Virus record (IMG/VR): IMGVR_UViG_3300045988_163836
Reading direction: 5' to 3' (one strand)
Origin: a virus
Length of the DNA stretch: 64,000 nucleotides
How positions within the stretch are numbered: the first letter of the stretch is position 1; each line of letters begins with the position of its first letter. Below the pieces are notes generated by a model. The model was given only the letters and a program-made list of their open reading frames with translations. It had not been told where the DNA came from and ran no database searches. This document shows, piece by piece, positions 44,955 to 61,062 of the stretch. A program made the translations under genes and the position numbers.

Positions 44955-45033
44955 CGAACAGCTTGATATTTTACTTGAAGAAGCAACAGATATTAAAATT
45001 TTGATTGCCTTGGGCTGAAAGGATTGGTAAAAA

Positions 45034-45464: not shown

Positions 45465-45527
45465 TTTATAATGTCAAAGGGAAATAATAATTAAATGTTT
45501 AGATAAAATAAGAAAGAGGTAAGCCTA

Positions 45528-46592: not shown

Positions 46593-46617
46593 CAAAATAG
46601 CCCTATTGTGATATAAT
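46589..46617 (+). promoter_or_regulatory. Early promoter (TTGACA-17-TATAAT) overlapped by a palindrome.
   Basis: ttgacaaaatagccctattgtgatataat. The palindrome is tagccctat ... atagggcta at 46598-46624. Confidence 0.55.
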
Positions 46618-46646
46618 AGGGCTATCAAAAGAAAGGAATTGATATC

Positions 46647-46958
46647 ATGAATTTTGAATCCGCTATTGTTGAAGCAATGAATTTGCAGGACTTGCACAAT
46701 TATATAAACAACATGAAGCCCGAAGAATTACAGACCCTGATTGCATTAGCACAGACAAGAATTAACCAGTTAGACCAAGAGAAAGAAGCAAAGTACATGG
46801 CCGCAATTATTAAGGCTATTCAGGATTATCTGGATAATGTTGGAGATTTGACATTCCATGTCGAGTATGAAGATGAAGATGGTCAGAACGGGGAAACTGA
46901 CATTACAGTAGATAATACAAATCCGCCTGCTGGTGGCAATGGAGTTATTTATATTTAA
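46647..46958 (+). CDS. Hypothetical protein, 103 aa.
   Basis: Track ORF with the conserved leader AAAGAAAGGAATTGATA. Confidence 0.55.
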   Translation: MNFESAIVEAMNLQDLHNYINNMKPEELQTLIALAQTRINQLDQEKEAKYMAAIIKAIQDYLDNVGDLTFHVEYEDEDGQNGETDITVDNTNPPAGGNGVIYI

Positions 46959-46970
46959 GGAGTGATACAA

Positions 46971-47285
46971 ATGCTTACAAATCCTAGTTTTTATATTGCA
47001 TGGGCTGTCATGGCCGTATTTCCTCTAATGATTGCTTTTCTTGCCCCTGAAACTTGGGGCGGCAAAATTGTTGCTATTTTAGTTGCACTTGCTATCGCTT
47101 TTGGTGTTGCGACTCTTATGTATAAAGAAGCAGAGGGAGACCATGATCGCTGGAACAATGGATACTGCGAATGTGGTGGTCAGTATCAGTTTTCTAGTGC
47201 TACAAATTGGCGTGGTTCAAAAAACTATTATTACACTTGTGATAAGTGCGGGCATACAGAAGAATTTCATGCAATCATGAAATAA
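46971..47285 (+). CDS. Membrane-anchored zinc-ribbon protein, about 104 aa.
   Basis: TAAGGAG then the ATG at 46971. An N-terminal transmembrane segment and a C-terminal CxCGG..CDKCGH motif. Confidence 0.5.
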   Translation: MLTNPSFYIAWAVMAVFPLMIAFLAPETWGGKIVAILVALAIAFGVATLMYKEAEGDHDRWNNGYCECGGQYQFSSATNWRGSKNYYYTCDKCGHTEEFHAIMK

Positions 47286-47334
47286 AAAACAAGCCGGCTG
47301 GGAAAAAAATTATAAAAAAAAATTCCCAACCGGC

Positions 47335-47363
47335 TTGACAAATTAAAAAAAATTTGATATAAT
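47335..47363 (+). promoter_or_regulatory. Early promoter (TTGACA-17-TATAAT) following a hairpin terminator at 47291-47337.
   Basis: ttgacaaattaaaaaaaatttgatataat. Confidence 0.55.
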
Positions 47364-47394
47364 AATAGTACCAAAAGGAAAGGAATTGATAATC

Positions 47395-47805
47395 ATGACT
47401 GAAATTACGACCTATGAATGCGACTTTTGCGGGCAGGTGTTCGACGATGAAGCGGAATGTATTCATCATGAATGGAAATGCAGATACGAAGATCTGTGTA
47501 AAACTGAAAATTGCGAACCAATAAAAATGTTCAATGTCCTTGGTAAAGAAATCAATAGTTTTGATTATCCTGAATGTGATGAAATTGGAGCTGTTGAAAT
47601 TCATTCTTACGCTTGGGCACAATTCATCAATGATTATTTTGATGAACGGGGTTATGAACATCCTATTAAAATTAAAATGGGGCTGATTGATTACTATGGT
47701 CTGTGGTATTATGACCCTGAATACCATTATGGTGAGTGGCGGTCTTATGAAGAAGTTCTTGAAGGTATTCAGGAAATTGGCAAGAAATTTGGAGTAGGGG
47801 CTTGA
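47395..47805 (+). CDS. Cys-rich hypothetical protein, about 136 aa.
   Basis: Track ORF 47386..47805. Preferred ATG at 47395 after the conserved leader. CDFCG..C..H and C..C motifs. Confidence 0.55.
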   Translation: MTEITTYECDFCGQVFDDEAECIHHEWKCRYEDLCKTENCEPIKMFNVLGKEINSFDYPECDEIGAVEIHSYAWAQFINDYFDERGYEHPIKIKMGLIDYYGLWYYDPEYHYGEWRSYEEVLEGIQEIGKKFGVGA

Positions 47806-47830
47806 CAAGCCCCTTACCCTGTGGTATAAT
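47802..47830 (+). promoter_or_regulatory. Early promoter (TTGACA-17-TATAAT). Its -35 element is embedded in a hairpin.
   Basis: ttgacaagccccttaccctgtggtataat. Hairpin aggggcttgacaagcccct. Confidence 0.55.
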
Positions 47831-47860
47831 TGATTTATCAAAAGGAAAGGAATTGATACA

Positions 47861-48136
47861 ATGAATTATCAAGTTATTTTCATGGATAATGAGGGAACTG
47901 TTCAGGCGGGTATTTGGAATCAGGACAGGGATGAAATTGTCTGCGGTTGCTGTGGTGCAACCATCGAGTCGGGCGATTTTGTTCTGCTTCATATCTATGA
48001 TGAATGGCTGAACATTACCGATGAAATCTGTGGAGATGATGGAGAAATTCTCCATGAGATTGAAGAAAAGGTTGACCGCCTGACTACTTCGGAGATTGAG
48101 GCAATTCTTGATGGAGAGAAGGATTTTAACGCATGA
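47861..48136 (+). CDS. Hypothetical protein, 91 aa (CGCCG motif).
   Basis: Track ORF with the conserved leader. Confidence 0.55.
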   Translation: MNYQVIFMDNEGTVQAGIWNQDRDEIVCGCCGATIESGDFVLLHIYDEWLNITDEICGDDGEILHEIEEKVDRLTTSEIEAILDGEKDFNA

Positions 48137-48282
48137 AAGGGAAAAAGTTCAGAAAGGGCGGTTACATCGCCCAAGCTGTCCAGTGGGACCATTATGAAGC
48201 CCTTTGGATTTGTAAATTTTCATGGGGCGAGTTCTTCTATGAAGATGATGAATTTATCAGGGAAAATCTGGTGGAGGATTAA
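48133..48282 (+). CDS. Small hypothetical protein, 49 aa.
   Basis: ATGA overlap with the upstream stop. Hand-translated as MKGKKFRKGGYIAQAVQWDHYEALWICKFSWGEFFYEDDEFIRENLVED. Confidence 0.35.
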   Translation: MKGKKFRKGGYIAQAVQWDHYEALWICKFSWGEFFYEDDEFIRENLVED

Positions 48283-48284
48283 AA

Positions 48285-48605
48285 ATGAAATTTTTGATTG
48301 CGGCGATTATTGCTTGGTTTCAGAAAAATGAACTGCCTGTTGTAATTTATGGGGCTGATGGTAGCCCCATTGCCAACTGGGAAATTAAGCCAAAGGATTG
48401 TTATTTTGCAAAGCGGCTGGATGAGGCTGTTCGCGATAGAGATGGATTATACTGTTATCCATTAAATGCTGATGGTGAATACTGCGGTTGCATTTGCTGG
48501 GAGTGGCGGGGAGATGATGATGATTTTGAACAGCCAGAAATTTATGATATTTTGAATATCTGTAATCTTCTGGAAATTGCCTGCGGTTTGGATGAAAATT
48601 CCTAA
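48285..48605 (+). CDS. Hypothetical protein with an N-terminal transmembrane segment, 106 aa.
   Basis: Track ORF. A terminator hairpin at about 48620-48662 follows. Confidence 0.5.
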   Translation: MKFLIAAIIAWFQKNELPVVIYGADGSPIANWEIKPKDCYFAKRLDEAVRDRDGLYCYPLNADGEYCGCICWEWRGDDDDFEQPEIYDILNICNLLEIACGLDENS

Positions 48606-48714
48606 AAAATTGGGCGGTTCATTTGAGCCGCCCGATGTCCTGCACACCGGGCGGCATTTTAATTTTTTAGCATTTTGCACAATTTTTTCATGCAAATTTT
48701 GTGCATCTTGCCAA

Positions 48715-48743
48715 TAGACAAAAATCCTGAAATGTGATATACT
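48715..48743 (+). promoter_or_regulatory. Early promoter in the second copy of the repeated cassette (TAGACA-17-TATACT).
   Basis: tagacaaaaatcctgaaatgtgatatact. Confidence 0.5.
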
Positions 48744-48845
48744 CTATAATGTCAAGAGGGAACGGTTAGAGAAAAACCTATTGCTATTAAGTTAGCATCA
48801 CGGTTTGAAATCCGAAAAAATTTCAAAAATAAATAAAATTCCCTC

Positions 48846-48874
48846 TTGACAAATAGTACCTGATGTGTTATAAT
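48846..48874 (+). promoter_or_regulatory. Early promoter (TTGACA-17-TATAAT).
   Basis: ttgacaaatagtacctgatgtgttataat. Confidence 0.55.
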
Positions 48875-48923
48875 TGAGTCAACAAGTGAAGGAAACACTT
48901 AAAAACCAGAAAGGATTGATACC

Positions 48924-49310
48924 ATGGAAAAGATTAAAGCCCCCACCCGCAAGGAAATATTCACTACTGTTTCTGACTTCCTCGCCCAGCATGATGCAGA
49001 CACTGACCTGATTGATTTCATCAATCACCAGATTGAACTGCTGGACAACAAGAAGGAAAACAAGAAGCAGGCCAAGGAGCAGGAAGAAAACGCCGCCTAC
49101 TCTGATGCAATCTATGAGCAGATGGCATTCGAGCGTAAGTACAGCGTTGCAGAGCTGATGAAGGAGCTTCCGATGGTCAATGACTGGAACACCAACCACG
49201 AAACTGAACTGTCGGTTCAGAAGCTCGCAAGCCTGTTGAAGCCGCTGGTCGATGGTGGCAAGGTCATTAAGACCACCGAGAAACGCAGAGTGTTCTACAC
49301 TAAGGCGTGA
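48924..49310 (+). CDS. Hypothetical protein, 128 aa. Paralog of 51202..51579 (module copy A, gene 1).
   Basis: Track ORF. Its C-terminus 'GKVIKTTEKRRVFYTKA' compares with 'GRVIKTTEKRRVYYTKA' in the paralog. Confidence 0.55.
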   Translation: MEKIKAPTRKEIFTTVSDFLAQHDADTDLIDFINHQIELLDNKKENKKQAKEQEENAAYSDAIYEQMAFERKYSVAELMKELPMVNDWNTNHETELSVQKLASLLKPLVDGGKVIKTTEKRRVFYTKA

Positions 49311-49356
49311 TAAACCAAGGGGCGGAGAAATCCGCCCCACTATTTAAGGAGAGCCT

Positions 49357-49755
49357 ATGAGAGAGTTGACTGAAAAGGAATGGGCAAAAGTCGATAATCT
49401 TGTTGACAAGCTGGAATGTTCGATTGATGAAGCAGTTGACATTCTGGACGCCGACAAAGCTATTGACCGCAATCAGAAGGTTGATTTTGATTTAAGTCCA
49501 GAAGAACATAAGCAAGCAATGAAACTTGCTAATGTCAAAGAGCATACAGTTAAGAAAAGCAATGTCTATCGCCCGCGTAAGCCTAATGAAATTAAAGGTG
49601 CGATTATCGCCGGTTTGTCAAAATATTTGACAGAAACGGCAGATTTTGAAGTGATTGATGAAGAAATCACAAATAAAGAGCGTACAATCATGTTTACAAG
49701 TGGCGGCAACCGCTACGAATTGACCCTGATACAAAAGAGAGCATCAAAAACTTGA
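49357..49755 (+). CDS. Hypothetical protein, 132 aa. Paralog of 51672..52034 (module copy A, gene 2).
   Basis: Track ORF with a shared architecture ('...RYELTLIQKR' vs '...YRLTLMRPRK'). A terminator follows at 49756-49793. Confidence 0.5.
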   Translation: MRELTEKEWAKVDNLVDKLECSIDEAVDILDADKAIDRNQKVDFDLSPEEHKQAMKLANVKEHTVKKSNVYRPRKPNEIKGAIIAGLSKYLTETADFEVIDEEITNKERTIMFTSGGNRYELTLIQKRASKT

Positions 49756-50028
49756 AGAAAATGCTGGAAAATGAAAATTTTTCCAGCATTTTTGTATAAT
49801 TTAATGAATTTTTAAGGATTTTTTGTGCATTTTTATCTATTGACATTTGGGCTGCCCGGCCACGACCTAGCCGGGCAGAATTTCCAGTTTTTACCAGTTT
49901 TACCAATTTTTTTACCAAAACTCTGCTTCATTTGATTAAAATATTAAATCCTTAAAGTGTCGTTGAGTCATGGACACCAAATATTGGAAATGTATAAATA
50001 TTCATTGAAAATGAATAAATATTCTTCT

Positions 50029-50057
50029 TGACATTTTGGGCAAGGTGTGATAATATA
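50029..50057 (+). promoter_or_regulatory. Early promoter (TTGACA-17-TAATAT with TGTG extension).
   Basis: ttgacattttgggcaaggtgtgataatat. The palindrome TATTCATTgaaaATGAATA (about 49999-50017) lies just upstream. Confidence 0.55.
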
Positions 50058-50118
50058 TAAGAGCAATGAGGGAGCGATGGCAAACCCTGATTGACATTAT
50101 TAAAAGGATGGAAACCCT

Positions 50119-50976
50119 ATGACTAAACTTGATAAGCGTCGAAAGTATTACCTGATTCTGGATTGTGAAACTGCGACACTTCCTTATGCCGCAAAGTTTA
50201 ATGCAAACCAGAAAAAAGATGTCGCAATCGCCAAGCCGCTGATTTATGATTTGGGATGGCAGATTGTGGATATTCGGGGCAATGTTTACAAGCGTGCGTC
50301 TTATCTCATTTCTGAAATTTTCAGTGTTCCCGCCGTTTTCAATACTGCATATTATGCAAGTAAGCGTCCGATTTATTTGGAGCGTCTGAAAGCCGGAGAA
50401 ATCAAGCTGACGGATTGGAATACCGCAGTCAATGAACTGATTGAAGATTTGGACGCTGTTGTAGCTGTTGGAGCATATAACAGTATGTTCGACTTTAAGA
50501 AAGCTATTCCATTCACTGACCTGTATGTTTCCAAGCTCTATGCCCCTGATTTCTTTGAGTGGGAAGCATATCAGAATGATAGATGTGAAGCAATCGCCCA
50601 CGGAAGCAAGCCCCATTCGCAGAAAGAGTTTGAACCGGATGTTTTCCGCTTCCATGGCAAGACGTATCCGCTGTTTGACTTGTGGGGTCTGTCTTGTGAA
50701 CACCTGTTGAATAATCCTGAATATAAACAGATGTGCTATGATAATGAGTGGAGAACCGCAAGCGGCAAATATTATCCGACTAACGCAGAAAAGGCATTTG
50801 CCTATTGTTTCCAGCAGGAAGATTTTGAAGAAAGTCATACTGCATTAGAGGACGCAATTATTGAGTCTATGCTGTTCGCCCTTATTGGAGCAAAGACCAA
50901 GCACAAGTTTGAAATGGGCATTGAATATTTCCCCTACAAGAAGTTGGGAAGATTTGACAGTGATTGGGAGCTGTAA
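50119..50976 (+). CDS. DEDDh-family 3'-5' exonuclease (DnaQ/RNase T-like), 285 aa.
   Basis: Exo I motif 'LILDCETATL' near the N-terminus and Exo III motif 'HTALEDA' near the C-terminus. Confidence 0.6.
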   Translation: MTKLDKRRKYYLILDCETATLPYAAKFNANQKKDVAIAKPLIYDLGWQIVDIRGNVYKRASYLISEIFSVPAVFNTAYYASKRPIYLERLKAGEIKLTDWNTAVNELIEDLDAVVAVGAYNSMFDFKKAIPFTDLYVSKLYAPDFFEWEAYQNDRCEAIAHGSKPHSQKEFEPDVFRFHGKTYPLFDLWGLSCEHLLNNPEYKQMCYDNEWRTASGKYYPTNAEKAFAYCFQQEDFEESHTALEDAIIESMLFALIGAKTKHKFEMGIEYFPYKKLGRFDSDWEL

Positions 50977-51101
50977 AAAGCTCCCAACTCTCCCAAAATT
51001 ATCATAGCTACGGTATTGAAATTGCCATTCTGACAATTACTTCCAGCGTTCCGCGATAAAATGTCAGCCGAAAAAAAATCGTGGAAAATTCAATTAAGGT
51101 A

Positions 51102-51130
51102 TTGACAAATCAAAAGGTTTGTGATACAAT
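51102..51130 (+). promoter_or_regulatory. Early promoter (TTGACA-17-TACAAT) with a downstream operator-like palindrome.
   Basis: ttgacaaatcaaaaggtttgtgatacaat. TGTTCC-aagaga-GGAACA at 51136-51153. Confidence 0.55.
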
Positions 51131-51201
51131 ATAATTGTTCCAAGAGAGGAACACAAAACAAATAAGGGTTGCGACCTACCGCTAGAAAGGAATTGATAAT
51201 T

Positions 51202-51579
51202 ATGGAAAAGAAGATTACCTATGCTCAGGCTCTGAACACCGTTCTGAACAATGAGAACATCGTCCTCGCGTCTGATGTTCGTGAGAAGCTGGAAGCCCTG
51301 CTTGCTTCTGTTTCCAAGAAGTCCGGCGAAAAGAAGGAGACTGCACAGCAGGTCGAGAACGCCACGATGGTGGAGCGGATTTATCAGGAGATGGAAGCCA
51401 ACCGGACTTACTCCATTGCCGAACTGATCAAGGAGCTTCCGGTTGTGGCAGATTTCAATGCTAATCATGAGAATGATATGTCCACTCAGAGGATGGCAAA
51501 TCTGCTCAGAACCCTTGTGGAAGATGGCAGGGTGATTAAGACCACTGAAAAGCGGCGTGTCTACTACACCAAGGCATGA
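51202..51579 (+). CDS. Hypothetical protein, about 125 aa (module copy B, gene 1).
   Basis: An internal ATG (MEKKITYAQ) of track ORF 51169..51579, preceded by the conserved leader GAAAGGAATTGATA. Confidence 0.55.
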   Translation: MEKKITYAQALNTVLNNENIVLASDVREKLEALLASVSKKSGEKKETAQQVENATMVERIYQEMEANRTYSIAELIKELPVVADFNANHENDMSTQRMANLLRTLVEDGRVIKTTEKRRVYYTKA

Positions 51580-51671
51580 GCGAAAAAGAAGTAAGGGGAG
51601 AAAGCTCCCCTTACTTCTCCCAGCTAGTTCTAGCTAGTTCCTAGTAAACAAAATTCTAATAGGACGGTAAA

Positions 51672-52034
51672 ATGTTAATGACCGCTGAAAAGTTGGCAAA
51701 TTCGCTTAAAATTTCCATTGAAGAAGCCAAACAGGTTTTGGAAATGGACAAGCGAATTGATAGGGGCGAAAAGCTGTTTGAGTTGCCGCCGGAGCTTGAA
51801 GCAGGAGCAAAAAAGGCAAGACGTGCCGACCGGAAGAAAGTGGAAAATGTAAGGCGGGAGCGAAAACCTGATGAAGATAAAAGGGAACTAATCCAGTATT
51901 TGGAAAGTTCCTTGGAAGATGCCTACCCCGATTTGGATTTGGGTAATATTACCATTGCAAATCCAGAACGAGAAATGGAATTTACTTACAATGGAATTAA
52001 ATACCGGCTGACCCTGATGCGCCCAAGGAAATAG
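51672..52034 (+). CDS. Hypothetical protein, 120 aa (module copy B, gene 2). It ends in TAG.
   Basis: Track ORF. The stop is TAG at 52032-52034. Reading through would add about 40 aa across two terminator hairpins (52040-52075 and 52118-52160). Confidence 0.5.
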   Translation: MLMTAEKLANSLKISIEEAKQVLEMDKRIDRGEKLFELPPELEAGAKKARRADRKKVENVRRERKPDEDKRELIQYLESSLEDAYPDLDLGNITIANPEREMEFTYNGIKYRLTLMRPRK

Positions 52035-52259
52035 ATGGAAGATGGAAACATCTTCCATCCTTTTTGGAATCATAATTGGAAAATTTTTCCAAGGAAAATA
52101 TTGGAACAGATGGTAATTTCAACCGGTCGCGTACAGTTGACGCGACCGGAATTTTGATTTAATTTGATAATTGTAAATTTTCCGAAAAAAAATTCGGACA
52201 TTTTACGAAAATTGATTTTTCCCGAATTTTATAGTATTATGTAAAAGGAGGTAAAAATT

Positions 52260-52880
52260 ATGAACAAATATGAATTAGCAAAATATATTAATACAACAGT
52301 TGGAATGGTAGAAACCAATTTTCCCTTGCTCTGCTCTAAAAATTTAGCTAAAGGGTATTTAATTACAAAAATTGGTAAAGGTGAAACGGCTGATTATACT
52401 ATTCAAGAAGTAGAACCATAGATATTAGATAAAAAATTTTTTTCTAAAAAACGAGAACTTGATAATTATTCTCATTTATCTGAAGAAGAATTAAAAAATG
52501 AAAAATGGATAACTACTTATTGTTCTAACTTGTACGAAGTATCAGATTTAGGAAGGGTTAGAAAAAAATATGATAAAAAAATTTTATAGGGAACTATAAT
52601 AGATGGATATTAGTATGTAGAATTAGATTATCATAGATATGGAATGAATAGAATTGTATTACAATCTTGGCACCCTAGCCCTGATTTCCAAAATTTGACA
52701 GTAGACCATATTGATGGAAAAAGAGGGAATAATAGGTTATCAAATTTAAGATGGGGAACTAATAAAGAGAATACTGCTTGGATGTTAATGAATAGGAAAG
52801 AAATAACAAAGGAAACAACTCGATTGATAAATTAGTATGGGTATGATGAAGTATTAAAAATACTTCAATTAATTAAATAA
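52260..52880 (+). mobile_element. HNH homing endonuclease gene of about 206 aa. It is intact only if four in-frame TAGs are read as sense. It sits in an AT-rich island.
   Basis: Perfect RBS AAAGGAGGTAAAAATT then ATG. 'YEVSDLGRVRKK' (NUMOD4-like) and 'VDHIDGKRGNNRLSNLRWGTNKEN' (HNH motif). Track ORF 52644..52835 is the C-terminal piece. In-frame TAGs lie at about 52419, 52611, 52632 and 52836. With the standard code only a 53-aa stub is made. Confidence 0.6.
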
Positions 52881-53078
52881 ATAAATTGGAGCCGACCGGT
52901 CTGGCAAGACTTGGTCGGAATTTCCGTTTAAACCCTCATATGGCAATTTTTTGTTCAATCTAGCAGCCTCTCATATGCCGCATGTTTTTCCCGAAACTTG
53001 CAATTTTTAAAAAAATATTTTATAATATATATACAGAATAAAGAGTTCTGGAAATCTTTATAAAGAGGTAATATACAT

Positions 53079-53474
53079 ATGTATGATTTTTATGATCGTC
53101 TGATGAAGGGTGAATCCGCAGAGGATATTGCCAAGAGCATCACTGAGGAACTGAATAAGGCACAGGCCAAGAGAACAGAAGAGTTGAAGGCTCAGGCTGA
53201 AAAGTCCAAGAGAGATCAGACAATGGCCGCGGATGCACAGGCTATCTGCACTGGCCTGGTGAAGTTTGCTAAGGATTATTATGGTTATGACATTGAGGTC
53301 AAGCCGGAAGACCTGATGAAGGTTTTTGATATGGCTGATAAGATTGGTCGTGCTATTGAAGACCTTGGTAAGACGGTTGAGAAGCCTGCTGAGAAAGTAA
53401 AGGCTAAGGTATACAAGGTCAATGGCTCTGCTGATGAAGTCATTGATAAGTTCCTTAATATGATGGGGTGGTAA
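53079..53474 (+). CDS. Hypothetical protein, 131 aa (standard code).
   Basis: Track ORF with RBS AAAGAGG. A terminator follows at 53477-53512 (aagggcttatgccctt plus a T-run). Confidence 0.55.
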   Translation: MYDFYDRLMKGESAEDIAKSITEELNKAQAKRTEELKAQAEKSKRDQTMAADAQAICTGLVKFAKDYYGYDIEVKPEDLMKVFDMADKIGRAIEDLGKTVEKPAEKVKAKVYKVNGSADEVIDKFLNMMGW

Positions 53475-53838
53475 GAGAAGGGCTTATGCCCTTTTCTTAT
53501 TTTTTTATTTTGGCTGGAAAATTTTGGAAAGTCAAATTTGATTTTTATAAAAAAATATGATATAATATTAAAAAAAGATATAATTGCATTAGGGTGATGA
53601 ATAATTGATGTCGGTCGATATATGGAGAATAGGGGTACCACTGGTGCAGTAGGGGCACACCCACTCCCTAATTTAATACAATTTATATCAATTTTATAAC
53701 AATCTTTTCTCAAATTATTATAATTCATAAATGATTCTATATTAACTAATATTAATTTTAAATTAAATTTATATTAAATTTTTATAATACCTTCTTTATA
53801 ATTATATCTCTTGTAGGCTAATATACAATTAGCCTACT

Positions 53839-54450
53839 TTATTTATATCTAAATGGCTATAATCTACCTGCTATGTTCCCACAAGGTTTATATAATAAAA
53901 TTAACGCAAACTCTATAGTTTTTAAATCAGCAGATGTTATATTTCTATCACATAATAAATCCTCTCCTTTTATAATTGGTTTAAATTCAATATTATCTCT
54001 CTACTCATTTAATAGTTTATATACATATAAACTATTATTATGATTTTTAATATTTCTTTTATGTTCATTCCATCTTTTATTAAAATCAACAGTACTACCT
54101 ATATAAATTAACTATCCATTCCTATATATACCATATACTCCACCATCACATACCTATGATACATTTTTTTTAGACTATCGTTCAAGTAATTTTCGTCTTT
54201 CTTCCTACTATCTTGCAACCATAGCATCAAATTCATCTTTGGTTCCAAACCAATTATAATATTTCTATTTATATGTCCAATAAGGTTTAGTTAATTTTTT
54301 CTAATCATCTACACATATTTCTTTATAATTATCTGGAACTATCATAGCTATATATTCTCTATCTAACCAATCATTATATTTACTAAATGATGATAATGGT
54401 TCTAATGTTCTATAAATATTTAACAAATTCTCACGATTCTATAATTTCAT
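53839..54450 (-). mobile_element. GIY-YIG homing endonuclease gene of about 204 aa. It is intact only if about 9 in-frame TAGs are read as sense. It sits in an AT-rich island.
   Basis: Hand translation gives '...GGVYGIYRNG(Q)LIYIGSTVDFNKRWNEHKRNI...LYVYKLLNE...', the GIY-(10)-YIG..R..H..E module. There is no TAA/TGA until the TAA at 53839-53841. A hairpin terminator (gtaggctaat...tagcctac) lies at about 53796-53822. Confidence 0.55.
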
Positions 54451-54544
54451 ATTAAATTCATAATTTTTCCTTTCAATTTTTGATTTCATTTTTCAATTCA
54501 TTTCTTTGCAACCACAAGGCCAACACCGCCATTCAAGAAAATAC

Positions 54545-54845
54545 CCTGTTTTGTCCTATTGTGGACCGAATGGGACACAATAGGACAAATATGTTATGTT
54601 CGATGTCCTGAATAGGACAAATCGGACAGGACATTTTCTTTCTTCAGCTTTTGTCGCATTTGTCGCATTTGTCCTAAACTAAGTCATTTTGCTAATTTTT
54701 TTAGATTTTTATTTAGTTATGTCGCATTTGTCCTATCGACATTTTAATACTTTCATTTAAAAATAGGACAAAACTCATTTGTCCCATTCAAGACAAATGT
54801 CTGCTTTTGTCTCATTTGTCGCATTTGTCCTATAGGTCCCATTTA
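54545..54845. repeat. Iteron/palindrome array. It is a candidate replication origin, partition site or multi-site operator.
   Basis: Palindrome 1: TTGTCCTATTGTG (54551-54563) with CACAATAGGACAA (54576-54588). Palindrome 2: GATGTCCTG (54602-54610) with CAGGACAT (54627-54634). Direct repeats: TTGTCGCATTTGTCGCATTTGTCCTA (54651-54677), GTCGCATTTGTCCTA (54721-54735), TTTGTCGCATTTGTCCTATAGG (about 54816-54835). Extra TAGGACAAA half-sites are present. Confidence 0.6.
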
Positions 54846-54870
54846 ATATCTTCTATGCTAATTCAAATAT

Positions 54871-55296
54871 CTACGGAGCTTTATAATCTACTCTGTCTAA
54901 TGCTCTGGTACTAATCTTCTAACCAAAAATTTTAAAATAAGCATCAACTGCTTCCTATTTAGTAGGAACTCCATTTTTATCTTTAACAGCTTTTACTATC
55001 GCTTTTTCTACATCTTCTTTATAAATTCTCTACTATGCTCCACCAGCTGCTCCTGCTTCTGCTTTCTATTTACTAACCTCTTTAGACTTATCAATAGTAA
55101 GTTTCATAGACTATAACAGCATCATAATAACTCCATAATCTTTATCATTCTCATCAGGCTCAATACCATACAATCCATAGTTAGTTAATGCACTATATAA
55201 TTTATATTTTAATTCTACATCTTCATTCTATTCAATAGTTTCTCTCATATTAGCCCAGAAGGTAAATTTTTCTTTATTCGGCTTTTCAACTGCCAT
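54871..55296 (-). CDS. Hypothetical protein of about 141 aa (TAG-recoded; five internal TAGs). The lower boundary is uncertain.
   Basis: GGAGGTAATTATTT then the ATG at 55294-55296. If the TAG at 54871-54873 is also read through, the frame stays open into the iteron array as far as a TGA near 54787. Confidence 0.4.
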
Positions 55297-55644: not shown

Positions 55645-55859
55645 ATATATTCTCCTTTTCTTTTATTAATCTACTATATATAAAAATATGAATAATATTC
55701 TTAACCGCGGTGGCCCAAAAAATTTTAAGTAATTTATAACAAGTTTAATTGATATAAGTTGAAATAAAAATATACCTATTGGTTTTATAAATAGTGGAAA
55801 AATATAAAAAAATTTGATAAAATATATATAAGATAAAAGATAAGAAAGGAAAATCTTAA

Positions 55860-56327
55860 ATGCCAAATTATCGTGAACAAAATGGCGAAGTTGGTAGCTA
55901 CAACAATCTTAAAGTCTGGGTCCTTAATGGTGAAGAGTTCCAGAAGAGGCTACTCACCAAGGGCGGACTTAGTGCTACTACTATCTACTGCCTTAAAGAT
56001 TATGACCCCTATCATAAATTACTGCCCGACTGCATGTATGCCTATATGATTAACCCCAATGATAAAGATAATCTTTACTGCCTTGGCACTATGGGCAATT
56101 ATGGAAAAGTGAATTTCAAGAAAAATATTGCAGCATGTGAAAAATTCGCACTCGCCCCTAAGCCTACTCCTAAGCCCGCATTTGAAATAGATACCACTAA
56201 TTATGGCGACGCACCTACTCTTACAACTATTGACAGCATTCTGGCCGATATCCAAAAGTGGAATACACAAATTAATTATGCTGACTATACTAAAACAGTG
56301 GATAAATATCTGGAGGCTCTTGTATGA
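55860..56327 (+). CDS. Hypothetical protein, 155 aa.
   Basis: Track ORF with GAAAGGAAAATCTTAA then ATG. A very AT-rich conserved promoter-like block lies upstream. Confidence 0.55.
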   Translation: MPNYREQNGEVGSYNNLKVWVLNGEEFQKRLLTKGGLSATTIYCLKDYDPYHKLLPDCMYAYMINPNDKDNLYCLGTMGNYGKVNFKKNIAACEKFALAPKPTPKPAFEIDTTNYGDAPTLTTIDSILADIQKWNTQINYADYTKTVDKYLEALV

Positions 56328-56533
56328 AAAAGTTTATGTAGTTTGCCCTAGATGATAATAATATATTTTTCTATGTCGTTAATGATATTGTAAACGTAAA
56401 ATTCTATACTCAAAATGAATTAAATAATGAATTAACAATGGAACTTACAACTAAATCTAACGGTATTGAAACATTTACATTCGATAACATAAGAGATTAT
56501 CAAGACGCTATAGATACATTTAATGACTTATGA
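56324..56533 (+). CDS. Small hypothetical protein of about 69 aa with one in-frame TAG (at the 6th codon).
   Basis: ATGA overlap with the upstream stop. The frame runs MKKFM(TAG)FALDDNNIFFYVVNDIVNVKFYTQNELNNELTMELTTKSNGIETFTFDNIRDYQDAIDTFNDL to a TGA that overlaps the next ATG. Confidence 0.3.
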
Positions 56534-56826
56534 TTAATCCATATTTCACATTTACAACAGATAATAAAAATTTTTGCTGCTATAAAACATCGGCCATCCT
56601 CTACGTTAGTTTTTATACCGACCCAAATGAAAAATATAAAATGCAAATTCAAACTGTAGGAGATACCACAGAAGAGACGATAGCTGTTTATTCCTTCAAA
56701 GATAAAAAATATTGGGATGCTGCCCAAGATAAATGGATGGATATTATGCGAGCCGCACGCAATGAAGCAGTAAATAATACCAATATGAAATATTACGGTA
56801 GCTATGGAGATGTTGACCCATGGTAA
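56530..56826 (+). CDS. Hypothetical protein, 98 aa.
   Basis: Track ORF with ATGA overlap. Confidence 0.5.
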   Translation: MINPYFTFTTDNKNFCCYKTSAILYVSFYTDPNEKYKMQIQTVGDTTEETIAVYSFKDKKYWDAAQDKWMDIMRAARNEAVNNTNMKYYGSYGDVDPW

Positions 56827-57020
56827 TTACTATCTATACAGGCCTTCAACGCAAACATCAAGTGAAAAATGACATTCGCTTCGTAAAAGGCGACAATACT
56901 ACTAACACTATTCATGTTACCTTTTGGAGTGGTAGAAAAGCTAAATACAAATGTGATGATAAAATCTATTATATTGCCGCATATGAGAGACTTCGCCGAA
57001 ACATTCAATATCCATTTTAA
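56820..57020 (+). CDS. Hypothetical protein, 66 aa.
   Basis: Track ORF. Confidence 0.4.
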   Translation: MVITIYTGLQRKHQVKNDIRFVKGDNTTNTIHVTFWSGRKAKYKCDDKIYYIAAYERLRRNIQYPF

Positions 57021-57080
57021 TTGAAAAATAAATAAAAATATTATAAAATATATATATAAACAATAGAGGAAAAATAAAAA

Positions 57081-57374
57081 ATGGATAAAAACTTATTTGC
57101 TAAACTTACTACTCTTACCTCTGAAGCGGAAGCCAACAAGGAACGTGCGGCAACTGAAAGAGCAGAAGAAATCATCACAAATAATACGCCGGCAATGCTA
57201 CAAGCGGCAACAAATGGTGCATATGCCTATACCATTGTCATTTCTCCCGATGATACTCCGTCATCAAGCAATTATACCGTTAAGAAACTTCAAGAAATTC
57301 TTAATTCTAATAAGTTTACAACTTGTTTTACCAATAATACGATGATTGTAAGGTGGCGTCCGAATGAATCTTGA
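57081..57374 (+). CDS. Hypothetical protein, 97 aa.
   Basis: Track ORF with AGAGGAAAAATAAAAA then ATG. Confidence 0.55.
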   Translation: MDKNLFAKLTTLTSEAEANKERAATERAEEIITNNTPAMLQAATNGAYAYTIVISPDDTPSSSNYTVKKLQEILNSNKFTTCFTNNTMIVRWRPNES

Positions 57375-57639
57375 CGAATATCTTGACCGTGCAACTGAAA
57401 TGCGGAATGAGATTGCGGCCTATGATGAGAAGATAGTACGCCTTTTGGACAAAAGAGTTCAATTGGCAAAAAACTTGGTAGAACTCAAAAAAGAACATTC
57501 TCGTCCCGCATATACACCAATAGTAGAAGAAAAGAAGATAGAGTATTTAAGCACTCTAACTTCTTATCCAGATTTAATTAAAATGATATGGCCTATGATT
57601 ATGGGCTATAGCCGCATCCCCTATAACGAAAGGATTTAA
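57364..57639 (+). CDS. Hypothetical protein, 91 aa.
   Basis: Track ORF overlapping the upstream stop. Confidence 0.5.
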   Translation: MNLDEYLDRATEMRNEIAAYDEKIVRLLDKRVQLAKNLVELKKEHSRPAYTPIVEEKKIEYLSTLTSYPDLIKMIWPMIMGYSRIPYNERI

Positions 57640-57640
57640 T

Positions 57641-57793
57641 TATGAAAATGAAAAACAATGTCTCCGGTAAGACTTATACGATCGCACAAATTTTCCGAGA
57701 CGATAGCGGATATTTCCGTGTCCTTTACTTTGATCCCGAAGCAAATAGATGGCTAACCGAAAGCCTCAACTTCTTTACTCCAGTAGAAAACTA
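57641..57793 (+). CDS. Small hypothetical protein, 50 aa.
   Basis: Hand-translated as MKMKNNVSGKTYTIAQIFRDDSGYFRVLYFDPEANRWLTESLNFFTPVEN. Confidence 0.35.
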
Positions 57794-57821
57794 ACTAAAA
57801 TTAAGAAAGGAAAAGACGTAA

Positions 57822-59192
57822 ATGTATAATGTATATATTTGTAAAGTAAAAAACATTAGACCTGCGGAAAATGCTGACCGTCTGAATACCTGTGAAGTAT
57901 TTGGTATTACTACCATTGTTGATAAATCCGTGAATGAAAATGACCTTTACGTCTATTTTCCTACGGATGGTCAGATTAGCGAAGAGTTTGGTAAGGCAAA
58001 TGATCTCTTCCGCCGCCAGGATGAAAATGGTAATCCGGCTGGTGGTTTCATTGACCCTGTGAAGCGTAATATTGGTGCAATTCGTCTACGCGGCAATAAG
58101 TCTGAAGGCCTGGTACTTCCGCTTACTTGTCTTGCTTCTTTTGGCGACATTAGCAATCTAGCTGAAGGTGATATTGTATCTACCTTTAATGGTCATGTGA
58201 TTGCCGAGAAGTACGTGCCGATGCATAAGCCCAGAGCTTCACAACCTACTGCACGCGGCGAACGCGACCGTAAGTCTGCAAAGAAATGCCGCATTAAGTA
58301 CCCGTTCTTCGCAGAACATATTGATACTCCGCAGCTTCGTTTTAATATGGATATGTTTAAACCGGGTGATATCATTTGCCTGACCGAGAAAGTTCATGGT
58401 ACCAGCTCTCGAAACGCATATCAAACTGCAATTATTGGTGAAAACGGTTTCTTCCTTACTAAACTTATTGCACACAGCAATTGGTTACCGAAGAAATGGC
58501 GTATGTCTGCACAGTCCCACCTTACTCCTAAAACTGAAATGCGTTATCTAATTGGCACTCGCCGCACTGTTCTTACCAATAATAGTGTTGGCGGTTTCTA
58601 TGGTAATGATGATTTCCGTAGAGCTTGGGGCGAACGTTTCAAGGGTAAGCTTCTGCCCAATGAGGAATGCTTCGGTGAAATTGCAGGATTCTATGCTCCT
58701 AACGCACCTATTATGACGCCGGGTGATAACACTAAAACTAAAGATAAAGCATTTATCAAACAATATGGTAAGACCACTACCTTCTCTTATGGTTGTTCTC
58801 CTACTGGTGACAATAAGCATCTTAATCGCTATTTTGTTTATCGTATGACTTATACCACTCCAGAAGGAGTAGTAATTGAATATCCTTGGGACCTTGTTAA
58901 GCAACGTGCTGAACAGATGGGTTTTGAAACTGTGCCTGAACTTGAACGTTTTATTTACACCACTGAAGAGGATTTTCTAGCACGAATTGCTAAATATGAG
59001 GATATTCCTTCTACGATTGATTCTTCTCATGTTATTGAGGGCGTAGTTATTCGTAAGATGAACGGCACTCGTTTCGATGTTGCAAAAGATAAATCTTATA
59101 ATTTTAAAGTGCTTGAGAACCTGATTAAGGTTGATGCAGAAGTGCCTGACATGGAAGAAATTGAAGAAGAAATGACTTTGGAGGATAATTAA
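57822..59192 (+). CDS. ATP-dependent RNA ligase, 456 aa, with an N-terminal OB-like domain (Rnl2/Rnl5-like nucleotidyltransferase).
   Basis: 'LTEKVHGTSSRN' matches the KxHGxN motif I variant of the Rnl2/DraRnl-type ligases. The N-terminal roughly 150 aa look OB-like, which is the Rnl5 arrangement. RBS AAGGAAAAG. Confidence 0.5.
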   Translation: MYNVYICKVKNIRPAENADRLNTCEVFGITTIVDKSVNENDLYVYFPTDGQISEEFGKANDLFRRQDENGNPAGGFIDPVKRNIGAIRLRGNKSEGLVLPLTCLASFGDISNLAEGDIVSTFNGHVIAEKYVPMHKPRASQPTARGERDRKSAKKCRIKYPFFAEHIDTPQLRFNMDMFKPGDIICLTEKVHGTSSRNAYQTAIIGENGFFLTKLIAHSNWLPKKWRMSAQSHLTPKTEMRYLIGTRRTVLTNNSVGGFYGNDDFRRAWGERFKGKLLPNEECFGEIAGFYAPNAPIMTPGDNTKTKDKAFIKQYGKTTTFSYGCSPTGDNKHLNRYFVYRMTYTTPEGVVIEYPWDLVKQRAEQMGFETVPELERFIYTTEEDFLARIAKYEDIPSTIDSSHVIEGVVIRKMNGTRFDVAKDKSYNFKVLENLIKVDAEVPDMEEIEEEMTLEDN

Positions 59193-59195
59193 TGG

Positions 59196-59412
59196 ATTTA
59201 ATTATAGGAGTTTTTATCCTCTGTATATTTGCCGTTTTAGTTGGAGCAGCATTAGGGAGTGAAATATAATGATTGTAATAGTATTATGTACCTTAATTGG
59301 TGCAGTTATTGGAATTGTATTAGCGAGGGCTACTGATTAATGGAACTATTTTTCTTAACCATTTTTATTTGTCTTACCTTTTATGCTCTTGGCAGTTTGT
59401 ACAATGATTAAA
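59196..59412 (+). other. Three tandem micro-ORFs of 23-25 aa encoding hydrophobic single-helix peptides.
   Basis: MDLIIGVFILCIFAVLVGAALGSEI, MIVIVLCTLIGAVIGIVLARATD and MELFFLTIFICLTFYALGSLYND, each with its own ATG and stop. Confidence 0.3.
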
Positions 59413-59492
59413 ATATTTATTTTTGGTTTTGTAATCATTGCATTCGTAATGTATTTATTCTGTAAAACAAACGATTTATAAGGAGAAATAAT

Positions 59493-59792
59493 ATGAGAAG
59501 TAGAAGTAGCGTCCTGATTGTTATTATTGTTGTGGCTCTTGTAATTGGTATGTTGATTTTTACATTCAGTGGTGCGAATTTCCAGCGTACCTTAAAGAGT
59601 TGGAGAAGTAATTACACTGGCGGTCTTTATCGTATTGTGTCTGTCTATGATTACAATGGTAATCTCTTGCGGGAATATGGTCCGGCAATGATTGATATTA
59701 GTGAATCAGAAAATGAAACATTCTTTGATTATAATGGTAATCGTGTCGTAATTCATAATGCTATTGTAATCGTTGAAGAAGTAAATAGATAA
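59493..59792 (+). CDS. Membrane-anchored hypothetical protein, 99 aa.
   Basis: Track ORF with RBS AAGGAG. A terminator follows at about 59795-59830. Confidence 0.55.
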   Translation: MRSRSSVLIVIIVVALVIGMLIFTFSGANFQRTLKSWRSNYTGGLYRIVSVYDYNGNLLREYGPAMIDISESENETFFDYNGNRVVIHNAIVIVEEVNR

Positions 59793-59879
59793 TCAAAGAG
59801 CCAGAGTAAATCTGGCTCTTTTATTTTTATAAAAAAATTTGTTAAAATATATATATAAAAATGAGGGAGAAAATAAATT

Positions 59880-60212
59880 ATGAAGTATGTTGCTTATGAT
59901 TATTTTGATAACTTCTATCCTGGTATTCTTGGTATCTGTAATACTGAAGCTGATGTGCAGGAACTGATTCTTGCCGCCGCCGAAGAAGAAGCATATAGGG
60001 CATTCCTTGATGATTATTATTATAATGAAACAGAAATTACAGTAAAACCTGGTGAAAATCCTATGGAAGTTTATCTCAATGATAAAGTTCTTGACTGGAA
60101 AGAGTATAATAAATTTAGATTTCCATTTGACGATAAAGATATTTCTTTCTATGGTTGGACTCTTCTTATGGCTGGTGAATATTATAACTATTCTATTGGA
60201 GAGGAGTACTAA
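59880..60212 (+). CDS. Hypothetical protein, 110 aa. Member 1 of a four-gene tandem paralog array.
   Basis: Starts MKY... and carries the motif 'CNTEADVQELILAAAEEEAY'. Confidence 0.55.
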   Translation: MKYVAYDYFDNFYPGILGICNTEADVQELILAAAEEEAYRAFLDDYYYNETEITVKPGENPMEVYLNDKVLDWKEYNKFRFPFDDKDISFYGWTLLMAGEYYNYSIGEEY

Positions 60213-60488
60213 ATGAAATATTTAATTTCTGAAATTGATGATGATGCTTGTTGTGAAATCCCTCGATATATTTGCAACACTCGTGCAGATGCCGAAGAAG
60301 CTATTCTGGCATTAACTGAAGAAGATGTATATTATCAAGCAATGTATGAAGGTGTAGATAATTTCTTCAATAACAGTTTTGAATTTAGAAAATCAAGACA
60401 TCCAGAAATGAAATGCAAAACTCATTACGGCACAGCTCTTTGGTTTATGAGTGGTCGATTTATTATTGAAGAATTAGGAGAATATTAA
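60213..60488 (+). CDS. Hypothetical protein, 91 aa. Paralog 2.
   Basis: Starts MKY... and carries 'CNTRADAEEAILALTEEDVYY'. Confidence 0.55.
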   Translation: MKYLISEIDDDACCEIPRYICNTRADAEEAILALTEEDVYYQAMYEGVDNFFNNSFEFRKSRHPEMKCKTHYGTALWFMSGRFIIEELGEY

Positions 60489-60490
60489 TT

Positions 60491-60784
60491 ATGAAAATTT
60501 ATACAGTTATAGATAGTAATAATTATGGTGAAATTAATAATTATGGTAATAACTATGAAGTATATTCTTTTAGAAATCTTAATGACGCACAAGAATTTGT
60601 TCTTTCATGCGTAGAACAAGAAAGTTTAAATACATATAATCATCTAATATCTATTTACACTGAAGAAAATGTTTTAACAGAATGGAAAAGATTAGCTTCT
60701 AAATATAACAAAACTCTTGAAGGTTATATACTTTATAAGGGCGGATATAATTTAAATGGAATTTATGAAAGTGAGCTTAATTAA
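60491..60784 (+). CDS. Hypothetical protein, 97 aa. Paralog 3 (divergent).
   Basis: Starts MKIY... and carries 'FRNLNDAQEFVLSCVEQE'. Confidence 0.5.
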   Translation: MKIYTVIDSNNYGEINNYGNNYEVYSFRNLNDAQEFVLSCVEQESLNTYNHLISIYTEENVLTEWKRLASKYNKTLEGYILYKGGYNLNGIYESELN

Positions 60785-61060: not shown

Positions 61061-61062
61061 AT

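What the first reader, a model, noticed from the sequence alone, without database searches (positions are those of the whole stretch)
52260..54450. Two homing endonucleases written in the recoded code, embedded in the standard-code early region
Two AT-rich islands interrupt the GC-richer, plus-strand, standard-code early genes. One carries an HNH endonuclease (52260..52880, plus strand, 4 in-frame TAGs). The other carries a GIY-YIG endonuclease (53839..54450, minus strand, about 9 in-frame TAGs). Each has a strong SD-type RBS and an otherwise perfectly open frame.

With the standard code each would be truncated after about 5 to 53 residues. The selfish nucleases would therefore only be expressed once TAG suppression is on. 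Recoding may act here as a timing or containment device for a potentially toxic nuclease. It also implies these homing endonuclease genes co-evolved with recoded phages.
Basis: partly seen in the sequence, partly recalled or inferred. Interest (0 to 1): 0.8.

Follow-up and report, generated by a model that had tools for sequence, protein, structure and literature searches.

The report
Amber-recoded mobile nuclease genes in phage
Two intact, mobile nuclease genes in the early region of a gut phage spell glutamine with the stop codon TAG, so full-length enzyme needs stop-codon suppression; this is real, but the same idea has been published for another phage group and the spelling is not special to nucleases.

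Summary
ORF 52260..52880 (+) has 4 in-frame TAGs and matches HNH_3 plus NUMOD4; its closest solved fold is I-HmuI. ORF 53839..54450 (-) has 10 in-frame TAGs, not about 9, and carries an I-TevI-like GIY-YIG core. Both are AT-rich, with late-gene codon usage, among TAG-free plus-strand genes.

TAG alternates with CAA/CAG at the same positions in relatives. dN/dS is 0.04-0.15 for close pairs, and no copy carries an in-frame TAA or TGA, so these are live genes that read TAG as Gln.

About 60 related metagenomic loci show all four presence/absence combinations. The HNH is a clean ~770-bp intergenic cassette. The GIY-YIG gene sits in a slot where alternative cassettes replace one another.

The timing/containment idea is only partly supported:
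- Full-length protein does require amber suppression.
- The non-nuclease DNA-binding genes in the same slot are also recoded.
- HNH TAG use equals the late-gene background, and one homologue has no TAG.
- Borges et al. proposed the same logic for a TGA-recoded intron endonuclease.

No suppressor tRNA was found. This is a new member of a known kind, of moderate interest.

The parts
51672..52034 (+). Early gene 'up120' (120 aa), the left flank of the HNH cassette. It ends in TAG.
   Evidence: No internal TAG, GC about 0.42. The stop is TAG in HNH-carrying genomes (window, L026, L027) and TAA at the same codon in HNH-less genomes. Read-through would add 40 codons.
52034..52149 (+). Two terminator-like hairpins after up120 (52034..52059 and 52123..52149). 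They are the likely neighbourhood of the HNH target site.
   Evidence: Terminator scan. The stems differ between HNH+ and HNH- genomes while pairing is kept.
52150..52918 (+). HNH cassette, about 770 bp and AT-rich: promoter-like site, SD, ORF and its own hairpin. It is bounded by AATTT on both sides.
   Evidence: 18 related loci have up120 followed directly by the next gene, with no HNH. In the nine of these aligned at nucleotide level, about 39 nt replace the cassette. It is present at the same site in L026, L027, L005 and L009-L014.
52212..52240 (+). Sigma-70-like promoter candidate of the HNH gene (TTGATT-17-TATTAT). It lacks the A-rich early-promoter consensus.
   Evidence: This is a consensus match only.
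52260..52880 (+). HNH/NUMOD4 endonuclease gene, 206 codons, TAG at codons 54, 110, 118 and 192.
52892..52918 (+). Hairpin at the 3' end of the HNH cassette (CCGACCGGTCTGGCAAGACTTGGTCGG).
   Evidence: It is nearly identical in L005, so it travels with the cassette.
53079..53474 (+). Early gene (131 aa, 'MYDFY...') between the two islands. No TAG, GC 0.44. It has a consensus early promoter at 52998..53026.
   Evidence: It is conserved in about 25 distinct relatives with no TAG in any.
53538..53700 (+). Orphan early-type promoter (53538..53566) with a conserved leader of about 130 nt and no ORF behind it. It points at the 3' end of the GIY gene.
   Evidence: No Rfam match and no conserved fold.
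53813..53837 (.). Hairpin immediately after the GIY stop codon, a possible two-way terminator.
53839..54450 (-). GIY-YIG nuclease gene, 203 codons. All 10 of its Gln-type codons are TAG.
54447..54474 (-). SD-like GAAAGGA (54468..54474) followed by a 4-codon mini-ORF ATGAATTTAATATGA (54447..54461). The mini-ORF's stop overlaps the GIY start.
   Evidence: Read from the sequence. A functional role is inferred.
54549..54833 (.). Cluster of at least 9 copies of ATTTGTCCTAT / TTTGTCGCA motifs in both orientations. It lies between the 3' end of the DUF6291 gene and the GIY 5' region.
   Evidence: Nine of the 11 matches with 0-1 mismatch in the 64 kb lie here.
54775..55296 (-). Second recoded gene of the minus-strand block (173 codons, 9 TAGs, DUF6291). 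No nuclease domain detected.
   Evidence: All 9 of its Gln-type codons are TAG.
55860..56327 (+). Early gene (155 aa), the right flank of the variable slot. It has an early promoter at 55805..55825 and no TAG.

Best explanation
The window comes from an uncultured human-gut phage of Bacillota. Relatives span 137-200 kb. Its terminase is 47% identical to Geobacillus virus E3 and 42% to Phass-1. Its structural genes read TAG as glutamine. Its plus-strand early genes avoid TAG inside ORFs, and two of them use it as a stop.

Two mobile nuclease genes sit in that early region.

1. A free-standing, I-HmuI-like HNH homing endonuclease cassette. It carries its own promoter-like site, Shine-Dalgarno sequence and hairpin, and is inserted in an intergenic terminator region.

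2. A nuclease with an I-TevI-like GIY-YIG core. It belongs to one of several alternative minus-strand cassettes that replace one another in a hypervariable slot.

Both genes are written in the AT-rich, TAG-for-Gln dialect of the late genes. A standard-code ribosome would make only 53 and 3 residues. Full-length nuclease can therefore appear only once amber suppression is active in the infected cell, presumably late (inferred). This gives the same outcome as the late-only translation of T4 homing endonucleases, reached by a different route.

I think this timing is mostly a by-product of a general rule in this lineage: AT-rich accessory and late-class genes use TAG for Gln. I do not think it is a device evolved for nucleases.

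Shown: gene identity, intactness, TAG read as Gln, and mobility.
Inferred: timing, homing activity, and the target site.
For: - Domain and fold matches.
- Conserved catalytic residues.
- TAG alternates with CAA/CAG at homologous codons, and dN/dS is 0.04-0.15 for close pairs.
- Every copy in the fetched loci is open apart from TAG.
- Codon-usage correlation with late genes is 0.84-0.88, against 0.54-0.69 with early genes. GC3 is 0.13-0.18.
- The HNH cassette is cleanly present or absent, and all four HNH/GIY combinations occur.
- The GIY slot holds four alternative cassette types, all containing TAG, including HTH-type proteins.
- The HNH family's TAG share is 27/71, against 259/573 in late genes (p = 0.26). 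One homologue has 0 TAG.
- More distant relatives repeat the pattern: an AT-rich HNH island (GC 0.25-0.28) in TAG-free arrays of GC 0.36-0.54.
- Late-restricted translation of T4 homing endonucleases is established (PMC2988022).
- The same recoding argument has been published for Agate phages.
Against: - No suppressor tRNA was found in the window. None was found in about 103 kb (positions 37,373-140,576) of the 144.6-kb contig of a close relative. That stretch includes the first five genes of a tRNA array; the array reaches 11 genes in another relative. The source and timing of suppression are therefore unknown.
- The GIY and DUF6291 genes use TAG for all their Gln codons. The GIY family share is 104/120. 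This is well above the late-gene average and could reflect selection for a hard translational block.
- No transcript or protein data exist, and the promoter scan cannot assign a temporal class.
- The GIY domain order is the reverse of classical GIY-YIG homing enzymes.
Confidence: 0.6

Rival explanations
1. Adaptive containment. In-frame TAGs were selected in these nuclease genes to keep a potentially toxic enzyme untranslated until the code switch. This would play the role that RBS-sequestering hairpins and late promoters play for T4 endonucleases.
For: - The first TAG always precedes the catalytic motif: codon 54 in HNH and codon 4 in GIY.
- GIY uses TAG for 10 of 10 Gln codons, and 104 of 120 across the family, against 0.45 in late genes.
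- Nine of ten HNH lineages keep at least one TAG.
- There is a T4 precedent for delayed translation, and Borges et al. made the same argument.
Against: - The HNH TAG share equals the background (p = 0.26), and one homologue has none.
- Non-nuclease genes in the same slot are recoded just as heavily: DUF6291 9 of 9, and HTH proteins 1-6 TAGs each.
- At least one TAG per gene is expected by drift alone.
Confidence: 0.22
2. One or both are not selfish homing genes. They would be nucleases that serve the phage: host-DNA degradation as with T4 EndoII, exclusion of co-infecting relatives, or a partner of the adjacent DNA-binding protein and its binding-site array. This applies mainly to the GIY gene.
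For: - GIY is present in most close relatives, and always next to a DUF6291-type gene.
- The domain order is reversed, and the N-terminal domain has no known DNA-binding fold.
- dN/dS is low.
- The motif array lies immediately upstream.
Against: - The best sequence and fold match is the I-TevI catalytic domain.
- The gene is absent from six related loci and occurs as two alleles only about 43% identical inside flanks that are about 90% identical. This is typical of mobile nuclease genes.
- The HNH gene shows a textbook cassette insertion.
Confidence: 0.15
3. The ORFs are decaying pseudogenes, and the TAGs are ordinary nonsense mutations.
For: Under table 11 both are fragmented.
Against: - There are no TAA or TGA interruptions in 8 HNH and 10 GIY distinct copies.
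- TAG aligns with conserved Gln.
- dN/dS is 0.04-0.4.
- Catalytic residues are conserved.
- The essential structural genes of the same genome carry 259 in-frame TAGs.
Confidence: 0.01

Closest known systems
Recoded group I intron endonuclease in an early gene of Agate phages (Borges et al., bioRxiv 10.1101/2021.08.26.457843; read)
   Same: A homing-type endonuclease located in the early region of a stop-codon-recoded gut phage. It carries in-frame reassigned stop codons, and the authors argued these prevent enzyme production until late in infection.
   Different: That case is TGA-to-Trp, intron-encoded, and in a different phage clade. Here the code is TAG-to-Gln and the genes are free-standing: an intergenic cassette and a cassette-slot gene, with no intron detected. 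The HNH TAG usage is not above the late-gene background.
I-HmuI (Bacillus phage SPO1 HNH homing endonuclease, PDB 1U3E) and free-standing Mob-type HNH genes of T4-like phages (PMC2988022)
   Different: There is an extra N-terminal winged-helix domain (residues 1-50 of the model). The gene is not intron-encoded. It is written with TAG as Gln. Activity and target are untested.
I-TevI and Seg-type GIY-YIG homing endonucleases of T4 (PDB 1LN0/1MK0; PMC2988022)
   Same: A GIY-YIG core with conserved Tyr, Tyr, Arg, His, Glu and Asn, including a DFxKRWxEH stretch close to that of I-TevI. Patchy distribution among related phages. Translation of the T4 enzymes is restricted to late times.
   Different: The catalytic domain is C-terminal, behind a 100-residue domain of unknown fold, where I-TevI and Seg have it N-terminal. 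The gene is exchanged together with a DNA-binding gene as one of several alternative cassettes. The delay would come from the genetic code, not from an RNA hairpin.
Block-wise dual genetic code in gut phages (Mgcod, bioRxiv 10.1101/2022.06.29.495998; Phass-1, PMC10607447)
   Same: A late structural block in code 15 and an early block readable in either code. The main code switch coincides with the strand switch at about 37.3 kb.
   Different: The HNH gene is a single code-15-only gene on the same strand as the dual-coded early genes. This is below the block size such tools resolve. No Sup-CTA tRNA lies at the 5' end of the recoded block, where Mgcod usually finds it.

Membership tests
HNH homing endonuclease (NUMOD4 + HNH_3, I-HmuI-like) | HNH catalytic motif with a conserved His and Asn residues | tested here: met
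HNH homing endonuclease (NUMOD4 + HNH_3, I-HmuI-like) | Attached DNA-binding modules | tested here: met
   NUMOD4 2.4e-5. The model shows a winged-helix at residues 1-50 and C-terminal helices. DNA binding itself is inferred.
HNH homing endonuclease (NUMOD4 + HNH_3, I-HmuI-like) | Sporadic presence or absence at one genomic site among close relatives | tested here: met
   A cassette of about 770 bp against a junction of about 39 nt. It is present in 5 sequence types and absent from 18 loci at the same site.
HNH homing endonuclease (NUMOD4 + HNH_3, I-HmuI-like) | Cuts or nicks the cassette-less allele and is copied into it | not testable with these tools
   This needs purified protein or mixed infections. 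The identity profile around the site gave no clear co-conversion tract.
GIY-YIG homing endonuclease (I-TevI / Seg type) | GIY-YIG catalytic core with conserved Tyr, Tyr, Arg, His, Glu and Asn | tested here: met
   Pfam GIY-YIG 1.9e-6. Y116, R126, H130, E180 and N192 are invariant and Y106 is nearly invariant. I-TevI is the top hit by sequence and by fold.
GIY-YIG homing endonuclease (I-TevI / Seg type) | N-terminal catalytic domain joined by a linker to a C-terminal DNA-binding domain | tested here: not met
   The catalytic domain is residues 104-200, at the C-terminus. The N-terminal domain (model pLDDT about 90) has no significant fold match.
GIY-YIG homing endonuclease (I-TevI / Seg type) | Sporadic distribution consistent with mobility | tested here: inconclusive
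   It is absent from L024, L026, L030, L032, L038 and L041, and there are two alleles about 43% identical. However, absence always means replacement by another cassette, not an empty site.
GIY-YIG homing endonuclease (I-TevI / Seg type) | Site-specific cleavage of the allele that lacks it | not testable with these tools
Phage with TAG-to-Gln recoding of late genes and a code-neutral early block | Long ORFs appear only if TAG is read through, and TAG aligns with Gln in homologues | tested here: met
   259 in-frame TAGs in 21 late ORFs. Portal, terminase and capsid-type matches come from the TAG=Q translations. TAG alternates with CAA/CAG in the two nuclease families.
Phage with TAG-to-Gln recoding of late genes and a code-neutral early block | Early genes free of internal TAG | tested here: met
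   51 plus-strand ORFs have no internal TAG. Their stops are 32 TAA, 17 TGA and 2 TAG.
Phage with TAG-to-Gln recoding of late genes and a code-neutral early block | Phage-encoded suppressor tRNA with a CUA anticodon | tested here: inconclusive
   None in the window (ARAGORN, Rfam). None in the fetched parts of relatives, including tRNA arrays of 5-11 genes. The genomes are only partly covered.
Phage with TAG-to-Gln recoding of late genes and a code-neutral early block | The code switch coincides with a switch of coding strand | tested here: not met
   This holds for the main block and the GIY block. The HNH gene, however, is recoded on the same strand as its TAG-free neighbours.
Intron-encoded homing endonuclease | The ORF lies inside a self-splicing intron that interrupts a host gene | tested here: not met
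   Both genes lie between complete genes. The flanking genes are intact in genomes with and without the cassette. No Rfam intron match.

The most novel reading that the evidence does not exclude
The HNH gene may be a code-dependent two-product gene. Its first TAG (codon 54) falls immediately after a predicted winged-helix domain (residues 1-50). It is kept at codons 51-54 in five of seven lineages aligned. Before suppression starts, the gene would yield a 53-residue DNA-binding fragment. That fragment could occupy the target or the gene's own promoter, giving immunity or repression. After the code switch the same mRNA would yield the full nuclease.
Probability: 0.07. Interest if true: 0.7.

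Novelty: new member of a known kind. Interest (0 to 1): 0.4.

Why it matters
- This is a clear example, backed by a population survey, of selfish nuclease genes adapted to a non-standard code inside a region that is otherwise readable in both codes.
- It shows that code-15-only genes can occur as single-gene islands on the 'standard' strand. Block-wise code callers and table-11 pipelines would truncate or miss them.
- It suggests two testable ideas. First, that a code switch can substitute for the RNA-hairpin and late-promoter control known from T4 endonucleases. Second, that recoding acts as a barrier confining these mobile genes to recoded phages.
- The general concept is already in the literature, and the data fit a by-product explanation, so the advance is incremental.

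Tried and rejected
1. Close phage relatives in GenBank. Only a 72-nt match to a crAssphage HNH gene was found. Relatives had to be fetched from IMG/VR and metagenomes instead.

2. An RBS-sequestering hairpin for HNH. The single-sequence fold pairs the SD (z = -2.5). The consensus over five lineages is only -0.42 kcal/mol with little covariation, so this was left as inconclusive.

3. Promoter class as a clock. An A-rich early-promoter consensus marks nine plus-strand intergenic sites, but not the HNH or GIY genes. Late operons also have sigma-70-like sites, so no timing can be inferred.

4. Suppressor tRNA. I walked through relatives from about 10 kb upstream to about 37 kb downstream of the window. 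Only ordinary tRNAs turned up, starting about 25-27 kb downstream.

5. Co-conversion tract. Identity profiles against seven relatives are mosaic at 75-99%, with no sharp tract.

6. The orphan promoter and leader at 53538..53700 as a structured RNA. There is no Rfam hit and no conserved fold.

I used the 93%-identical database proteins P0001 and P0034 instead.

8. Pseudogene reading: rejected.

9. Intron-encoded reading: rejected.
Full report
**1. What is in the sequence**

Reading 52260..52880 on the plus strand gives a 206-codon frame closed by TAA. It is interrupted only by TAG, at codons 54, 110, 118 and 192. Reading 53839..54450 on the minus strand gives a 203-codon frame closed by TAA, with ten TAGs, the first at codon 4.

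With TAG read as Gln:
- The first protein matches Pfam HNH_3 (2.6e-9) and NUMOD4 (2.4e-5), and phrog_59 'HNH endonuclease' (1.9e-24, residues 54-173).
- The second matches Pfam GIY-YIG (1.9e-6, residues 104-140).
- All three Pfam matches are above their gathering scores, and the matches span TAG positions.

The two ORFs have GC 0.27 and 0.24, against 0.40-0.44 for the neighbouring genes.

**2. Context: a phage with two coding dialects**

With TAA and TGA as the only stops, the minus strand from 313 to 37253 resolves into 21 long ORFs. These hold 259 in-frame TAGs; one ORF of 3107 codons has 108. Their TAG=Q translations match portal, large terminase and virion protein families.

The plus-strand ORFs of 37557..53474 and 55860..63661 have no internal TAG. 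Their stops are 32 TAA, 17 TGA and 2 TAG.

TAG makes up 0.45 of the Gln-type codons (TAG+CAA+CAG) in the late block and 0 in the early genes.

The terminase is closest to Geobacillus virus E3 (47%), Enterococcus phages (45%) and Phass-1 (42%). Phass-1 is a described TAG-recoded gut phage (PMC10607447). Related contigs come from human-gut metagenomes and span 137-200 kb. This is therefore a large Bacillota phage, not a crAss-like phage.

**3. The ORFs are live genes and TAG means Gln**

The closest solved relatives are true homing enzymes.

The HNH residues H150, N158, N162 and N171 are invariant in 22 sequences. In the GIY family Y116, R126, H130, E180 and N192 are invariant and Y106 is nearly invariant.

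In codon alignments, TAG in one lineage lines up with CAA or CAG in another. Examples are ILqG/ILQG, VLQSW/VLqSW and NEqRD/NEQRD. dN/dS is 0.04-0.15 for close pairs and 0.2-0.6 for distant ones.

A profile search of every stop-to-stop frame in the loci fetched up to that point found 8 distinct HNH and 10 distinct GIY copies. All are open apart from TAG, with 1-5 and 5-11 TAGs respectively. The pseudogene reading is excluded.

**4. Mobility**

I fetched about 60 related loci through the flanking early genes and typed them.

HNH gene:
- It lies between the same two early genes in the window, L026, L027, L005 and L009-L014.
- 18 loci lack it; in the nine aligned at nucleotide level, about 39 nt join the flanks.
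- The cassette (52150..52918) brings a sigma-70-like site, a strong SD and its own hairpin. It is bounded by AATTT on both sides.
- It is inserted just after the terminator hairpin of the upstream gene.
- HNH-carrying genomes share a distinct left flank. This includes a TAG instead of a TAA stop for the upstream gene.

GIY gene: it occupies a slot between 53.7 and 55.4 kb that holds four alternative minus-strand cassettes.
- GIY + DUF6291.
- GIY + a 183-aa DUF6291-like HTH protein.
- A 221-223-aa protein.
- A 110 + 101 + 214-aa trio.

All four HNH/GIY presence/absence combinations occur. Two GIY alleles only about 43% identical sit in flanks that are about 90% identical.

A different HNH gene, also with TAGs, sits at another early intergenic site in L040.

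More distant relatives repeat the motif. They have an AT-rich HNH island (GC 0.25-0.28) in a TAG-free array of GC 0.36-0.54, with 2, 1 and 0 TAGs.

**5. How it most likely works**

Shown: a standard-code ribosome would stop after 53 residues (HNH) or 3 residues (GIY). Full-length nuclease therefore needs amber suppression.

Inferred: suppression becomes effective later in infection, as proposed for such phages. If so, the nucleases are late proteins even if transcribed early.

T4 reaches the same end by hiding the ribosome-binding site in early transcripts and using late promoters (PMC2988022).

The homing step itself is also inferred. It would consist of cleavage or nicking of the cassette-less intergenic region in a co-infecting relative, followed by repair from the cassette-bearing genome.

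**6. Is the recoding aimed at nucleases?**

The evidence leans against this.
- The non-nuclease genes in the same slot are recoded too. DUF6291 uses TAG for 9 of 9 Gln codons, and the other cassette proteins carry 1-6 TAGs each.
- The HNH family's TAG share (27/71) does not differ from late genes (259/573, p = 0.26).
- One homologue has none.
- With about 7 Gln-type codons and a TAG share of 0.38, about 96% of copies would carry at least one TAG by drift.

In favour of selection:
- GIY and DUF6291 use TAG far more than the late average. The window GIY gene has 10/10 (p = 4e-4), and the family has 104/120.
- This resembles the 'preferentially recoded' families of Borges et al.

I therefore rank a compositional by-product with a real timing consequence first (0.6), and adaptive containment second (0.22).

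**7. What is known already**

Borges et al. described a TGA-recoded group I intron endonuclease inserted in an early gene of Agate phages. [quoted passage not shown] The present case extends that to a TAG-to-Gln Bacillota phage and to free-standing genes.

It also adds an exception to the rule that the code switch follows the strand switch. The HNH gene is recoded on the early strand.

No literature hit combined free-standing endonucleases with TAG recoding.

**8. Limits**

- No CUA-anticodon tRNA was found in the window.
- None was found in the fetched parts of relatives, which include a tRNA array that starts about 25-27 kb beyond the window end.
- The genomes are only partly covered.
- There are no expression data, and nuclease activity and target sites are untested.

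**9. Verdict**

This is a new member of a known kind, with interest 0.4.

Noticed in passing
window 54549..54833: At least nine copies of ATTTGTCCTAT / TTTGTCGCA-type motifs, in both orientations and partly in 9-nt tandem. They are packed between the 3' end of the DUF6291 gene and the GIY 5' region. Nine of the 11 matches with 0-1 mismatch in the 64 kb lie here. This looks like an operator or iteron array for a DNA-binding protein.
   Followed up: partly
window 53538..53700: A perfect copy of the early-promoter consensus (TTGATT-17-TGnTATAAT with an A-rich spacer), followed by a conserved leader of about 130 nt and no ORF. It points at the 3' end of the GIY gene. It is conserved even in relatives with other cassettes. 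No Rfam family and no conserved fold were found.
   Followed up: partly
window 54447..54474 (-): The SD-like GAAAGGA serves a 4-codon mini-ORF (ATGAATTTAATATGA) whose TGA overlaps the GIY start codon (ATGA). This suggests termination-reinitiation coupling. Relatives have different tiny ORFs at this position.
   Followed up: partly
window 51672..52034 and 38113..38313: Two early genes end in TAG. Amber suppression would extend them by 40 and 8 codons. The first has TAG only in HNH-carrying genomes and TAA in HNH-less ones.
   Followed up: partly
window 26800..28603 (-): Two ORFs inside the recoded late block have no TAG: 26800..27423 and 27467..28603. They are also GC-richer (0.37-0.39). Their neighbours 22381..23466 and 28621..29397 have only 2 and 1. 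Any link to high expression was not tested.
   Followed up: no
window 37318, 43098, 47345, 53008, 53548, 55805, 57029, 59830, 62238 (+): A shared promoter motif, TAAAAAAATATnnTATAATAT. There are 14 matches against 1.2 expected; 12 are on the plus strand, and 11 of those (nine sites) fall in intergenic gaps of the early region. It is absent upstream of the HNH and GIY genes.
   Followed up: partly
L040 4583..5173: A second, different NUMOD4/HNH gene (3 in-frame TAGs in the ORF, 2 within the HNH match). It is inserted at another early intergenic site, next to a paralogue of up120. The window has no gene there (49755..50119).
   Followed up: partly
L090-L094 (about 25-37 kb beyond the window end in relatives): A plus-strand tRNA array of 5-11 genes. 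It includes an odd 'Phe(aaa)' call and a class-II-like tRNA with a CCA anticodon. There is also an uncalled tRNA-like sequence at L093 20380..20480. ARAGORN found no CUA anticodon.
   Followed up: partly
window 52216..52226 and 52985..52995: TTTTTCCCGAA occurs both just upstream of the HNH gene and just upstream of the next gene's promoter. A CCCGA(A/T)TTT-TATAAT-like element precedes the HNH gene in all lineages. It may be a duplicated intergenic module or a cassette-specific promoter.
   Followed up: partly
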